From the NCBI GenBank assembly GCA_001695645.1, contig LVZN01000001.1, forward strand, positions 90,001 to 122,000: a stretch of 32,000 nt of DNA, written 5' to 3'. The DNA is from Erysipelotrichaceae bacterium MTC7. Lineage in GTDB: Bacteria; Bacillota_I; Bacilli_A; Erysipelotrichales; Erysipelotrichaceae. This document shows positions 6,639 through 7,138 of the stretch, in pieces. The notes beneath the pieces were generated by a model, which had not been told where the DNA came from, did not search any database, and worked only from the letters and a program-made list of their open reading frames with translations. The position numbers were made by a program, and so were the translations under genes. Within the stretch, counting starts at the first letter, position 1, and every line of letters begins with the position of its first letter.

Positions 6639-6697
6639 CCCTTTGACTCTCCTTCACACACTTTTACATAGCTTATGCCACGTTTCCCACACAAACG

Positions 6698-6708
6698 GTA
6701 GGAATTAA
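6698..6708 (+). repeat. GTAGGAATTAA motif, copy 1
   Basis: Exact 11-mer. The extended similarity to copy 2 is GTAGGAATTAA(GA)AC-TTTGT. Confidence 0.9.
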
Positions 6709-6855
6709 GAACTTTGTTTTATCCATCAATCTTCCCGGATGATGGATTGTTTCACGATTTTCCATTATTGTTTCCCTGACAACAATAGATGTAGTGCTTA
6801 TCCCTTTATTCATGGGCTTTCCTGCATGGTTTAGACCATATTACCCTTGAATCAA

Positions 6856-6866
6856 GTAGGAATTAA
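6856..6866 (+). repeat. GTAGGAATTAA motif, copy 2
   Basis: Exact 11-mer, immediately followed by a perfect 9-bp hairpin ATAGCCGCT-ACAAG-AGCGGCTAT (6877-6899). Confidence 0.9.
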
Positions 6867-6924
6867 ACCTTTGTCGATAGCCGCTACAAGAGCGGCTATG
6901 TAAAGGCTTGAAATTGTTTCCTTC

Positions 6925-6938
6925 CCTACTTCCTACTT
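6925..6938 (+). repeat. Tandem CCTACTT-CCTACTT (inverted core of the GTAGG motif)
   Basis: Two adjacent 7-mers; on the minus strand they read AAGTAGGAAGTAGG. They lie just downstream of the predicted -10, at or near the transcript 5' end. Confidence 0.85.
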
Positions 6939-6940
6939 AA

Positions 6941-6968
6941 ATAATAGCATATTTTTACGACTTGTCAA
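6941..6968 (-). promoter_or_regulatory. Near-consensus extended -10 sigma-A promoter for the metallopeptidase gene
   Basis: Minus strand reads TTGACA (6963-6968), 16 nt, TGc, TATTAT (6941-6946). This implies a ~295-nt 5' leader. Confidence 0.55.
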
Positions 6969-6986
6969 TACATTTCCGGATTTTTA

Positions 6987-6997
6987 GTAGGAATTAA
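6987..6997 (+). repeat. GTAGGAATTAA motif, copy 3
   Basis: Exact 11-mer, 19-29 bp upstream of the predicted -35 relative to minus-strand transcription. Confidence 0.9.
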
Positions 6998-7111
6998 AAA
7001 CATCAAATACATCTATGTTTATCGTGCTTTTCGTAGTTAGTCAAAAACATGTCGTAAAAAATGTTTACTTTTCTTTAGTAATTTATATTTCATAACATTT
7101 TAGTATTCAAC

Positions 7112-7138
7112 AAAAAAAGTAACTGCCGTAGCAATTAC
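7112..7138 (-). terminator. Rho-independent terminator after the folT-like gene
   Basis: Minus RNA reads GUAAUUGC-UACG-GCAGUUAC (8 bp, one G-U) followed by UUUUUUUG. The stem overlaps the stop codon. Confidence 0.8.

What the first reader, a model, noticed from the sequence alone, without database searches (positions are those of the whole stretch)
6639..7134. 496-bp non-coding region with a strong promoter, ~295-nt leader and a five-copy GTAGG/CCTAC repeat system upstream of the M34-like protease
This is by far the largest non-coding gap in a tightly packed window.

Seen directly:
(i) A near-consensus minus-strand promoter: TTGACA (6963-6968), 16 nt, TGc, TATTAT (6941-6946). That puts the transcript start near 6934, about 295 nt before the ATG at 6638.
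(ii) The exact 11-mer GTAGGAATTAA occurs three times on the + strand (6698, 6856, 6987). Copies 1 and 2 are similar over about 20 nt.
(iii) Its core occurs inverted as tandem CCTACTT-CCTACTT (6925-6938), at the predicted 5' end of the RNA.
(iv) Three perfect local hairpins (6877-6899, 9 bp; 6766-6787, 7 bp; 6721-6747, 8 bp), none followed by a U run.

In the minus-strand RNA this gives 5'-AAGUAGGAAGUAGG followed by two UUAAUUCCUAC segments. The 5' element can form 9 bp with the proximal copy or 7 bp with the distal one, so the helices are mutually exclusive. UUCCU could also pair with the AAGGAG SD at 6649-6654.

The third copy lies just upstream of the -35, so the motif could instead be a DNA operator bound at three sites.

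I cannot assign this leader to any riboswitch class I know.
Basis: partly seen in the sequence, partly recalled or inferred. Interest (0 to 1): 0.7.

Follow-up and report, generated by a model that had tools for sequence, protein, structure and literature searches.

The report
Repeated protein-binding palindrome upstream of protease
The big gap upstream of this secreted protease gene is built from repeated promoter modules carrying a short palindrome also found in many phage-like contigs, so it is most likely a docking site for an unknown DNA-binding regulator, not a riboswitch.

Summary

The 11-mer is the left arm of a ~25-bp dyad, TTAATTCCTAY-N7-RTAGG. Window copies keep perfect left arms (0/33 changes) but degenerate right arms (7/15).

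The gap consists of about three diverged ~125-158-nt units: promoter or relic, purine-rich start, hairpin, ~15 nt, dyad. A paralogous protease gene in other Breznakia genomes, in a different neighbourhood, has four full dyads. Two sit at -51 of strong promoters; the window's upstream copy sits at -49. The syntenic ortholog and six other paralog groups lack it.

The same palindrome (AATTCCTAC-N7-GTAGGAATT) recurs in IMG/VR phage or mobile-element contigs of 31-52% GC. It appears as tandem pairs 30-44 bp apart, and 22 times in one phage early region, in both orientations relative to promoters. Arms are conserved and the spacer varies.

Rfam finds nothing, including the c-di-GMP riboswitch that controls PPEP-1, a distant relative of this protease.

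Best reading (~0.5): an operator for an unidentified DNA-binding protein in reiterated promoter cassettes of the kind seen in mobile elements. An RNA-level role (~0.2) is not excluded.

The parts
7116..7141 (-). Intrinsic terminator of the upstream ECF-S-like membrane protein gene (11-bp stem, T7). It marks the upstream edge of the regulatory region.
   Evidence: only terminator-like site in 6400-7400; upstream gene, weak ECF_trnsprt match
7082..7110 (-). Unit U0: relic promoter TTGAAT-17-TATAAA. It lacks the T at -7 and was not called by the scan. It is followed by a purine-rich GTAAAC start that aligns with the starts of the other units.
   Evidence: read; unit alignment; not among the promoter-like hits
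6975..6997 (-). Dyad copy c3: TTAATTCCTAC-TAAAAAT-CCGGA. The left arm is perfect and the right arm is lost. The centre lies about -49 from the predicted start, and the site ends 6 nt before the -35.
6941..6968 (-). Promoter P1: TTGACA, 16 nt, TGc, TATTAT. This is the only strong sigma-A-type promoter for the protease gene. The predicted start is near 6934-6937, giving a leader of about 296-299 nt.
   Evidence: 11/12, TG; it aligns with L004 P1. The TSS is not measured.
6925..6948 (+). Inverted dyad-like site c4': (CCTAC)TTCCTAC-TTAAATA-ATAGC. It overlaps the -10 and the predicted start (centre about -6) and lies 43 bp from the centre of c3. On the RNA strand it reads AAGUAGGAAGUAGG.
   Evidence: scores 8.1 bits with the PWM built from viral sites only, fifth best hit in the window; inverted repeat with c3 is 13/15 (I2)
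6865..6909 (-). Unit U1 hairpin: 9-bp stem 6899-6891/6885-6877, extended by AAGCCUUU:AAAGGUUU (6909-6902/6872-6865). It ends 14 nt before TTCCTAC of c2.
   Evidence: (I14)
6844..6866 (-). Dyad copy c2: TTAATTCCTAC-TTGATTC-AAGGG, centre about +82. In RNA its UUCCUACUU can pair 9 bp with the 5' AAGUAGG(G)A element.
   Evidence: 11.9 bits
6765..6787 (-). Extra hairpin inside the longer unit U2 (AUUGUUGUC...loop...ACAAUAAU). It has no counterpart in L004.
6721..6747 (-). Unit U2 hairpin (8-bp stem AUCCAUCA/UGAUGGAU). It ends 16 nt before TTCCTAC of c1.
6684..6708 (-). Dyad copy c1: TTAATTCCTAC-CGTTTGT-GTGGGAA, centre about +240. This is the best-preserved dyad in the window: 6/7 symmetric as DNA, 7 bp with one G.U as RNA.
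   Evidence: 14.6 bits, top hit in the window
6636..6654 (-). Shine-Dalgarno AAGGAG (6654-6649) and ATG (6638-6636) of the protease gene. The region is unpaired in the predicted fold.
5523..6638 (-). [quoted passage not shown]
   Evidence: profile vs PDB: PPEP-1 E 4.5e-5; ATLF-like E 5e-4

Best explanation
The gap is a stack of about three diverged copies of one promoter cassette. Each cassette reads: hairpin (terminator-like), ~15 nt, dyad TTAATTCCTAY-N7-RTAGG, 6-8 nt, near-consensus extended -10 sigma-A promoter, purine-rich transcript start. Only the middle cassette (P1) still has an intact promoter.

The dyad is most likely a DNA site for an unidentified sequence-specific DNA-binding protein, probably a dimer that reads the two arms.

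In the window, P1 is bracketed by two sites 43 bp apart: one centred at -49 and an inverted one centred at about -6. Two more left-arm sites lie in the transcribed leader, at about +82 and +240.

P1 is intrinsically strong, so I infer that the protein represses, by occluding the -10 and start site and/or by bridging sites. When it leaves, the PPEP-like protease is expressed.

Shown: the anatomy, its conservation in a paralog's upstream region, and membership of a palindrome family common in phage or mobile-element contigs. Inferred: that a protein binds, that it represses, and the position of the TSS.
For: 1. The motif is a fixed-geometry dyad. In 10 copies from two lineages, register 0 gives 68.6% pairing against 55.7% or less for slid registers, and the four core pairs are 70-100% kept.

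2. All three intact strong promoters carry a dyad centred at -49 to -51: window P1, L004 P1 and L004 P2.

3. The same element sits upstream of a 47%-identical paralog in a different neighbourhood. There are four copies, spaced 123, 123 and 114 nt. It occurs nowhere else in 148 kb of Breznakia DNA.

4. The left arms are under selection. The window shows 0/33 changes in left arms against 7/15 in right arms, while the unit flanks are unalignable.

5. The palindrome recurs in IMG/VR contigs of 31-52% GC.
   - 22 dyads lie in 12.7 kb of L045.
   - Tandem pairs or triplets 30-44 bp apart occur in L088/L092, L101, L102, L103, L105, L106 and L107.
   - Seven loci carry perfect palindromes.
   - A control pattern with a non-palindromic right arm gave 1 hit against 11.

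6. In these contigs the arms are conserved in sequence and the spacer is variable. That is what a dimeric dsDNA binder produces, and not what an RNA-hairpin binder produces.

7. In L045 the dyads lie after terminators and 100-230 nt upstream of perfect consensus promoters, in both orientations relative to the promoter.

8. A PWM built only from viral sites ranks the four L004 copies first (20-26 bits; the next unrelated site scores 0.4). It ranks c1 first in the window.

9. A hairpin precedes each of the 7 Breznakia copies, with stems of 5-9 bp (about 3e-4 by chance). A terminator or hairpin directly precedes the dyads in L045, L088, L102 and L107.

10. No Rfam family matches.
Against: - No binding protein was identified. 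Genes next to the viral dyads share no DNA-binding family.
- The window's right arms are degenerate (c3 has CCGGA), so a symmetric dimer would bind poorly.
- Two of the three window copies lie in the predicted transcript, where an RNA role is possible. The 5' 95 nt fold significantly better than shuffles (z = -3.84).
- In viral contigs the distance from dyad to promoter varies (33-230 nt), whereas the distance from terminator to dyad is short.
- In L113 the dyad forms the top of an intrinsic terminator. In L110 and L112 it abuts an SD-like sequence.
- The syntenic ortholog (L003/L008) has a comparably strong promoter and no dyad.
- Half-site centres 16 bp apart are unusual for simple helix-turn-helix dimers.
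Confidence: 0.5

Rival explanations
1. RNA-level element. The CU-rich 11-mer (UUAAUUCCUAC) acts in the ~296-nt leader by pairing with GUAGG-type purine segments: the 5' AAGUAGGAAGUAGG, or a local right arm. This would clamp the 5' end into a rod and offer alternative helices that set mRNA stability or translation. A protein or sRNA might read the box.
For: - AAGUAGGGA:UUCCUACUU (9 bp), AAGCCUUU:AAAGGUUU (8 bp) and the 9-bp hairpin form one rod. Its energy is -29.3 kcal/mol with z = -3.84; the whole leader has z = -3.15.
- c1 forms UUCCUAC/GUGGGAA, 7 bp with a G.U. All four U:G cells at that pair come from the window lineage.
- Every CCUAC has a GUAGG-like partner somewhere in the same region.
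- Hairpins of different sequence sit at the same offset before each copy.
- Single-unit paralogs (L010, L011, L014, L018, L042) start with an AG-rich segment followed by a CU-rich ATTCCT-like partner. L018 shares AAGTAGGAAG with the window.
- PPEP-1 and PPEP-2 are controlled through their 5' UTRs (PMC6366702, PMC8610288).
- In L113 the dyad is part of a terminator stem.
Against: - c3 in the window and c1 in L004 lie upstream of the only strong promoters.
- The arms are sequence-conserved and the loop is variable, the reverse of what RNA-hairpin recognition usually gives.
- Covariation of the local helix is not significant: 137 of 500 shuffles reach the observed value.
- AG/CU duplex energies are no better than in shuffles, p = 0.14-0.9.
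- The L004 local stems are only 4-5 bp.
- No SD sequestration appears in the fold.
- In L045 the dyads occur in both orientations relative to transcription and after terminators.
Confidence: 0.2
2. Evolutionary relic. The array is the decaying product of tandem duplication of a promoter cassette acquired from, or shared with, mobile elements. Only P1 matters today. The repeated 11-mers have no present function, being kept by chance or by gene conversion.
For: - The units align as homologous modules, and two of three window units have lost their promoter.
- Right arms are decayed.
- One L009/L006 copy carries a core substitution, ATTCC to AATCC.
- The ortholog L003/L008 functions without the array.
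Against: - 0/33 changes in three left arms, while flanks within the same units have diverged beyond alignment.
- The same 11-mer is retained in a second lineage at matching offsets from promoters and hairpins.
- Gene conversion would also have homogenised the flanks.
Confidence: 0.12
3. Site-specific recombination sites. The arms-7-arms geometry resembles tyrosine-recombinase core sites (lambda-type 9-7-9, Xer-type 11-6/8-11, shufflon sfx with one conserved arm). Recombination between copies would delete, duplicate or invert promoter units and so vary expression.
For: - The geometry fits, and the family is abundant in mobile elements.
- In L045 subsets of sites share identical spacers (AGGTTTA, CAAAAGA, TATTCCT) and flank small gene cassettes.
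- In the window the conserved left arm and loose right arm recall sfx sites (own knowledge).
- c3 and c4' are inverted around the core promoter.
Against: - All spacers differ within the window (TAAAAAT, TTGATTC, CGTTTGT, TTAAATA) and within L004, and recombination needs matching spacers.
- The c3-c4' segment has only 40 bp between the arms.
- L001, 99% identical, has the same arrangement.
- No recombinase gene lies near the locus.
- Tandem direct sites 30-44 bp apart would be self-deleting.
Confidence: 0.06
4. A new small-molecule riboswitch or attenuator in the leader. This would be analogous to the c-di-GMP-I riboswitch in front of PPEP-1.
For: The leader is long and structured upstream of a PPEP-like gene. 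PPEP-1 and PPEP-2 carry c-di-GMP-I riboswitches (PMC6366702, PMC8610288).
Against: - No Rfam hit even at E up to 10.
- No terminator or SD-sequestering helix.
- The only conserved parts are the 11-mer and short right arm. There is no multi-helix core shared with L004.
- The ortholog lacks the region.
Confidence: 0.03

Closest known systems
SPBRE elements bound by the MrpR (YopR) master repressor of Bacillus phage SPbeta (PMC10516654)
   Same: A short conserved element is reiterated in intergenic regions upstream of promoters of a mobile element. It is read by one DNA-binding repressor. MrpR has a tyrosine-recombinase fold, and such proteins typically use palindromic arm-spacer-arm sites, the geometry seen here.
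   Different: SPBRE is a 15-bp motif whose sequence I could not compare, so this is an analogy and not a tested relationship. No MrpR-like gene was found near any dyad. Here the element also sits on a chromosome, in front of a housekeeping-flanked protease gene.
CIRCE operator (TTAGCACTC-N9-GAGTGCTAA) and the HrcA repressor (own knowledge)
   Same: A 9-nt-arm palindrome with a fixed, sequence-free spacer is conserved across distant Firmicutes. It is often placed between the promoter and the start codon, works as a DNA operator, and also forms an RNA hairpin in the leader.
   Different: The sequence and spacer length differ (7 against 9 nt). The regulon is heat shock. The binder of CIRCE is known, whereas here none is. 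The present dyad is reiterated and is enriched in phage or mobile-element contigs.
c-di-GMP class I riboswitch in the 5' UTR of zmpI/PPEP-1 and PPEP-2 (PMC6366702, PMC8610288)
   Same: It controls a secreted M34/ATLF-like Pro-Pro endopeptidase relative through a long region upstream of the start codon.
   Different: No GEMM-I or other Rfam match was found here or in the homologous loci. The conserved element is a DNA-type palindrome, partly outside the predicted transcript.
Multi-operator repression loops (lac O1/O2/O3, gal OE/OI) (own knowledge)
   Same: One operator lies upstream of the -35, one at the start site, and auxiliary operators lie downstream in the transcribed region of a strong promoter.
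   Different: Binding, looping and the repressor are hypothetical here. The spacings (43, 131 and 158 bp) are not phased consistently with the helical repeat.
Arrays of recombinase sites flanking cassettes: pdif modules in Acinetobacter plasmids, and R64 shufflon sfx sites (own knowledge)
   Same: Many copies of an arm-spacer-arm site lie between small gene modules on mobile DNA (the L045 pattern). The sfx sites have one conserved and one loose arm, as the window copies do.
   Different: Spacers differ between the Breznakia copies. No recombinase is nearby, and no rearranged variants were seen.

Membership tests
Rfam cis-regulatory RNAs, including c-di-GMP-I (GEMM), which controls PPEP-1 | Match to a covariance model at or above its gathering score | tested here: not met
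   No match in the window at gathering thresholds. At E up to 10, 6500-7300 gave only chance-level hits: SurC 20 of 80 bits, mir-450 and others. None in L003, L004, L011 or L018.
Riboswitch or structured leader RNA (generic) | Multi-helix core conserved with covariation across homologous loci | tested here: not met
   The window and L004 share only the dyad, the promoter and the positions of hairpins. The local helix shows no significant covariation, 137 of 500 shuffles. The ortholog lacks the region.
Transcription attenuator | Leader hairpin followed by a U run, with an alternative antiterminator | tested here: not met
   No terminator-like site in the leader of the window or of L004.
Palindrome family AATTCCTAC-N7-GTAGGAATT (defined here from IMG/VR contigs) | Left arm (TT)AATTCCTAY | tested here: met
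   Three exact TTAATTCCTAC copies in the window. The viral consensus is tttAATTCCTAc.
Palindrome family AATTCCTAC-N7-GTAGGAATT (defined here from IMG/VR contigs) | Exactly 7-nt spacer of free sequence, with Y at position 1 | tested here: met
   TAAAAAT, TTGATTC and CGTTTGT. Viral sites have Y at position 1 in 95%.
Palindrome family AATTCCTAC-N7-GTAGGAATT (defined here from IMG/VR contigs) | Right arm RTAGG(AATT), mirror of the left arm | tested here: inconclusive
   Window: GTGGG(AA) 4/5, AAGGG 3/5, CCGGA 1/5. L004: 4 of 4 copies have RTAGG. Viral-PWM scores are 14.6, 11.9 and low for the window against 20-26 for L004.
Palindrome family AATTCCTAC-N7-GTAGGAATT (defined here from IMG/VR contigs) | Hairpin or terminator directly 5' of the dyad, and sites in close pairs (30-44 bp) | tested here: met
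   Hairpins end 14-17 nt before TTCCTA in 5 of 7 Breznakia copies. c3 and the inverted c4' are 43 bp apart centre to centre. Viral pairs are 30-44 bp apart.
Invertible promoter (inverton) | Inverted repeats flanking a promoter on a segment long enough to invert, both orientations seen, and a recombinase | tested here: not met
   The inverted repeat is 13/15, but only 40 bp separate the arms. L001 has the same orientation. The feature is absent from L004. No recombinase lies among the neighbours.
Genome-dispersed intergenic repeat (REP, BOX or MITE type) | Many copies in unrelated intergenic regions of the same genome | tested here: not met
   The PWM scan of 148 kb of Breznakia DNA found the motif only in the two protease upstream regions. 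Whole genomes could not be scanned.
Tyrosine-recombinase core site | Inverted arms around a 6-8-bp spacer that is identical between partner sites | tested here: not met
   The geometry fits, but all spacers differ within the window and within L004.
M34 / ATLF-like (PPEP-type) metalloprotease (the downstream gene) | HExxH zinc site in a domain that matches ATLF/PPEP profiles | tested here: inconclusive
   HEVTH is present. The family profile hits PPEP-1/Zmp1 structures at E 4.5e-5 over about 75 C-terminal residues, and an ATLF-like domain at 5e-4. Pfam ATLF is not found on this protein even at E up to 10 and is only weak or faint on homologs. Activity and Pro-Pro specificity are not testable here.

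The most novel reading that the evidence does not exclude
AATTCCTAC-N7-GTAGGAATT is the recognition site of a widespread, so far undescribed DNA-binding protein of Firmicutes mobile elements, possibly a recombinase-fold repressor of the MrpR kind. Breznakia would then have wired one or two chromosomal PPEP-like protease genes into that circuit by capturing and reiterating the operator-promoter cassette. Production of the secreted protease would follow the state of a prophage or mobile element, or a host factor that phages also exploit.
Probability: 0.2. Interest if true: 0.7.

Novelty: new member of a known kind. Interest (0 to 1): 0.5.

Why it matters
PPEP-type proteases release surface adhesins. 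In Clostridioides and Paenibacillus they are switched by c-di-GMP riboswitches, and how relatives elsewhere are controlled is unknown (PMC8610288).

This locus suggests a different, protein-operator solution. It also gives a concrete 25-bp probe for fishing out the regulator.

The same palindrome marks promoter-proximal or terminator-proximal positions in at least 14 distinct phage or mobile-element contigs of very different base composition. That points to an unrecognised and fairly widespread regulatory or DNA-handling protein.

It is also a cautionary case. A long, hairpin-rich "leader" with complementary repeats looked like a riboswitch candidate. Its anatomy is better explained by duplicated promoter cassettes and a DNA palindrome.

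Tried and rejected
- **Rfam.** Gathering and permissive thresholds on the window and on homologous and viral loci gave nothing relevant.
- **Alternative sigma promoters.**
  - A sigma-H -35 (RNAGGAWWW) on the + strand has no GAAT -10 at the right distance and would be antisense.
  - A sigma-B-like GTTTAA-N16-GGGWAW fits window copies loosely. But the most conserved bases would then be spacer, and L004 does not fit. Both judgements come from reading.
- **Small ORFs.** The 11-mer encodes L-I-P-T in one frame in all three window copies, and L001's gene caller predicted the 46-aa ORF at 6673-6813. However, copy c2 has no start codon, L004 c1 has a 1-nt deletion that breaks the frame, and the ORF has no Pfam hit.
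- **Tandem repeat finder.** It finds nothing, because the units are too diverged.
- **AG/CU duplex test.** Not significant; the design was also weak.
- **JGI metagenomes.** The protease profile found no relatives. A motif-plus-promoter pattern gave 20 chance hits.
- **BLAST of the gap** against phage and plasmid collections gave no match. The same was true for L045 against phages.
- **Finding the binding protein by neighbourhood.** Only terminase and portal are shared among the viral loci. There were no informative Pfam or PHROG hits.
- **Phage Maintenon.** This [Clostridium] innocuum phage is the closest annotated relative of one dyad-bearing contig, and it has no dyads in 41 kb.
- **tRNA-arm mimicry** (5-bp stem, 7-nt loop): no tRNA was called, and loop position 2 is A, not U.
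- **Literature search** by sequence found only unrelated primers.
- **P0005.** This 70%-identical ortholog of the L004 group could not be retrieved.
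Full report
**1. Observation**

The sequence is as described.

- GTAGGAATTAA occurs exactly three times, at 6698, 6856 and 6987 on the + strand. It occurs nowhere else in the 32-kb window, even allowing one mismatch.
- In 5000 dinucleotide-preserving shuffles of the 496-bp gap, only 15 contained any 11-mer three times.
- The inverted tandem CCTACTT-CCTACTT is at 6925-6938.
- The minus-strand promoter is TTGACA (6968-6963), 16 nt, TGc, TATTAT (6946-6941). It matches 11/12 with an extended -10 and is the only promoter-like site on that strand between 6400 and 7400.
- The three hairpins exist and none is followed by a U run. The only terminator-like site is 7141-7116, which ends the upstream gene.
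- The gap is the largest between long ORFs in the window.
- The transcription start (about 6934-6937) and the ~296-nt leader are predictions only.

**2. Organism and genes**

- Downstream lies a 371-aa secreted protein with an HEVTH motif.
- Its relatives are confined to Breznakia and related Erysipelotrichaceae: 15 proteins in 5.8 billion, and 6 loci among GTDB species genomes.
[quoted passage not shown] "M34-like" is therefore reasonable but distant.
- Pfam ATLF is not detected on this protein itself.
- The neighbours are housekeeping genes: glycogen synthesis, pta, an ECF-S-like membrane protein, a folC-like ligase and ung.

**3. What the repeat really is**

Each 11-mer is the left arm of a dyad, read on the gene's strand:

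| Copy | Sequence |
|---|---|
| c3 | TTAATTCCTAC-TAAAAAT-CCGGA |
| c2 | TTAATTCCTAC-TTGATTC-AAGGG |
| c1 | TTAATTCCTAC-CGTTTGT-GTGGG(AA) |

The key came from a paralog 47% identical to the window protein. It lies next to a DUF815 ATPase gene in other Breznakia genomes (L004, L005, L006, L009). Its 496-bp upstream gap carries four copies of (W)WATTCCTAY-N7-RTAGG, spaced 123, 123 and 114 nt.

Copies 1 and 2 there each end 8 nt before the -35 of a strong extended -10 promoter (TTGACG-16-TGgTATTAT; TTGACT-16-TGcTAGAAT). The window's c3 ends 6 nt before its -35. All three intact promoters therefore have a dyad centred at -49 to -51. The window P1 module aligns with L004 P1.

On an alignment of ten copies, the dyad register is specific: 68.6% of cells pair, against 55.7% or less when slid. 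There is too little variation for covariation; 137 of 500 shuffles reach the observed value.

The window's left arms show 0 changes in 33 positions, while its right arms show 7 in 15.

The inverted tandem copy is itself a dyad-like site on the + strand: TTCCTAC-TTAAATA-ATAGC (6930-6948). It is centred at about -6 of P1 and lies 43 bp from the centre of c3.

**4. The gap is a stack of cassettes**

Cutting the sequence at the dyads gives units that align with one another and with the L004 units.

- The order of parts within a unit is: promoter or its relic, a purine-rich start (GTAGG/GTAAA), a hairpin, about 15 nt, then the dyad.
- The window has three units.
  - U0 (7110-6975) has a decayed promoter, TTGAAT-17-TATAAA.
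  - U1 carries P1.
  - U2 (158 nt) has no promoter.
- A perfect stem of 5-9 bp lies in the 45 nt before each of the seven Breznakia copies. The background frequencies are 0.32 for stems of at least 5 bp and 0.11 for at least 6 bp, which gives roughly 3e-4.
- In five of the seven copies the stem ends 14-17 nt before TTCCTA.
- The hairpin sequences differ between units.

**5. Distribution in Breznakia**

- The syntenic ortholog, 59% identical and next to pta (L003, L008), has a comparably strong promoter. It has no dyad and only a ~130-nt leader.
- The paralog groups represented by L007/L012, L010, L011, L013, L014-16, L017, L018, L039 and L042 also lack the dyad upstream.
- A position-weight scan of 148 kb of Breznakia DNA found the motif only in the two protease gaps.
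- It is therefore not a common dispersed repeat in these genomes. Whole genomes could not be scanned.

**6. The decisive lead: the same palindrome in mobile elements**

A scan of IMG/VR for two copies of the motif turned up L045, a 12.7-kb stretch of a 157-kb contig with 31% GC.

- It carries 22 strict dyads, TTAATTCCTAY-N7-RTAGG(TATTGAG).
- The region looks like a phage early module. It has 16 perfect TTGACA-17-TGnTATAAT promoters and 25 terminators, with small genes on both strands.
- The dyads sit just after terminators and 100-230 nt upstream of the promoters.
- Nearly all are on the same absolute strand. They are co-oriented with the promoter in minus-strand gene clusters and anti-oriented in plus-strand clusters.

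Further scans extended the family.

- Tandem pairs or triplets 30-44 bp apart occur in nine more contigs of 32-52% GC: L088/L092, L100-L103 and L105-L107.
- Perfect palindromes AATTCCTAC-N7-GTAGGAATT occur in seven loci.
- A control pattern with a non-palindromic right arm gave 1 hit against 11.
- The palindromic extension beyond RTAGG was not required by the search, yet it is common.
- The weighted consensus is tttAATTCCTAc-(Y A n n n n r)-gTAGGaaTta. The arms are near-invariant and the spacer is free.
- Several of the contigs are siphophage-like, sharing terminase and portal genes.
- In L045, L088, L102 and L107 a hairpin with a T run directly precedes the dyads. This echoes the Breznakia unit.

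A matrix built only from the viral sites supports membership.

- It ranks the four L004 copies first in that locus, at 20-26 bits; the next unrelated site scores 0.4.
- It ranks c1 first in the window at 14.6 bits.
- c2 scores 11.9 and the inverted site 8.1.
- c3 scores low because its right arm is lost.

**7. Mechanism**

Sequence-conserved arms, a fixed but sequence-free spacer, and occurrence in either orientation outside predicted transcription units are the signature of a double-stranded DNA site read by a symmetric protein. An RNA hairpin is usually recognised through its loop, bulges and shape.

I therefore favour an operator for an unidentified DNA-binding protein.

P1 is close to consensus and needs no activator, so repression is the more likely sign. 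Sites at -49 and -6 bracket the core promoter at a spacing (43 bp) typical of the viral pairs. Left-arm sites at about +82 and +240 could serve as auxiliary operators.

These last steps are inference. No binder was found, and genes flanking the viral dyads share no DNA-binding family.

Half-site centres lie 16 bp apart, and the arm-7-arm geometry resembles tyrosine-recombinase core sites. The SPbeta master repressor MrpR is a recombinase-fold protein that binds a reiterated intergenic element (PMC10516654). That is an analogy I could not test.

**8. What keeps the RNA reading alive**

- The first ~95 nt of the predicted leader fold into a rod, at -29.3 kcal/mol and z = -3.84. It consists of AAGUAGGGA:UUCCUACUU, AAGCCUUU:AAAGGUUU and the 9-bp hairpin.
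- c1 forms a 7-bp local hairpin with a G.U pair.
- Single-unit paralogs begin with an AG-rich segment followed by a CU-rich, ATTCCT-like partner. L018 shares AAGTAGGAAG at the start with the window.
- In L113 the dyad is the apical part of an intrinsic terminator. In L110 and L112 it abuts an SD-like sequence.
- PPEP-1 and PPEP-2 are riboswitch-controlled (PMC6366702, PMC8610288).

Against the RNA reading:

- The duplex test against shuffles was not significant.
- Covariation is absent.
- The most upstream copies lie outside the predicted RNAs.
- The SD is not sequestered.

In the window, the intact left arms and decayed right arms could mean either half-site binding or a secondary RNA use of the CU-rich arm. 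I cannot separate these.

**9. Other rivals**

- **Pure relic.** This is hard to square with 33 unchanged positions amid unalignable flanks.
- **Recombination sites.** The spacers are all different, no recombinase is nearby, and the near-identical L001 has the same arrangement.
- **Ligand riboswitch.** No conserved multi-helix core exists.
- **Small ORFs, alternative sigma promoters, tRNA mimicry.** These were examined and dropped (see tried and rejected).

**10. Verdict**

The element is a new, apparently undescribed member of a familiar kind, a palindromic protein-binding site. It is unusual in two ways: it is reiterated together with whole promoter cassettes, and it is shared between a chromosomal protease gene and many phage or mobile-element contigs.

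Confidence in the operator model is about 0.5. Interest is moderate (0.5).

Noticed in passing
L045 1-12691 (IMGVR_UViG_3300035520_001075): Phage early-type region with 16 perfect TTGACA-17-TGnTATAAT promoters, 25 terminators and small genes. Besides the dyad it carries a second reiterated box, (G)AGTTCA(C/T)A(A/G)AAT(C/A)G..ATAwTT, counted 16 times as GTTCAYARAAT. The two boxes together form ~60-72-nt composite repeats, and some dyads form 25-nt tandem arrays (3075-3000). There is no BLAST relative among 50,697 annotated phages.
   Followed up: partly
window 6952-6965 and 7047-7060: A 14-nt inverted repeat with one mismatch (TTTTTACGACTTGT / ACATGTCGTAAAAA; about 1% of shuffles). One arm overlaps the -35 and spacer of P1, and the other lies in relic unit U0. 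It interleaves with the c3/c4' repeat. TACGACTTGT also recurs at 6565-6574 inside the protease gene. It is not conserved in L004.
   Followed up: partly
window 6663-6672 and 6895-6904: A perfect 10-nt inverted repeat (UUUACAUAGC near the first leader hairpin, GCUAUGUAAA ~25 nt before the ATG), 222 nt apart. It would compete with the 9-bp hairpin. Two perfect 10-mers of this kind occur in about 7% of shuffles.
   Followed up: partly
L017 10001-13781: A shorter paralog of the protease (P0009, 314 aa) is followed directly by a LytTR response regulator, an AgrC-type histidine kinase and a 42-aa ORF. This is a possible peptide-signalling cassette controlling that paralog. No dyad is present there.
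   Followed up: no
L010, L011, L014, L018, L042 (about 130 nt upstream of the protease paralog next to the M18 peptidase gene): These paralogs share a compact leader. It reads: terminator, TGnTATATT -10, AG-rich start, CU-rich partner, a second hairpin presenting GGGAG/GGAGG in its loop, then a G-rich SD that can pair with a nearby CU tract. It looks like a conserved translational or stability device, separate from the dyad.
   Followed up: partly
L088 9320-9440: Next to three tandem dyads there is a GTGTAAACGTTTACAC palindrome. It is followed by five ATAGTCG heptads just upstream of a TTGACA promoter driving a gene with an AcrIC5-like (anti-CRISPR) domain. The element also carries a serine recombinase and XRE regulators.
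   Followed up: no
window 15160-15192: AATTCAAAC-CATTCAA-GTAGAAATT is a dyad-like palindrome scoring 11-12 bits with the viral matrix. It lies inside the PcsB-like CHAP hydrolase gene and is probably chance.
   Followed up: no
window 6673-6813 (-): This 46-aa ORF was called as a gene in the near-identical contig L001. It has no Pfam match and no counterpart in L004. The 11-mer reads L-I-P-T in frame in all three window copies, which appears coincidental.
   Followed up: yes
window 14249-17534: Two adjacent FtsX paralogs sit with FtsE and a PcsB-like coiled-coil/CHAP hydrolase. At 10069-10719 a 216-aa ORF carries only a fragment of an alpha-amylase domain, near a pullulanase gene.
   Followed up: no
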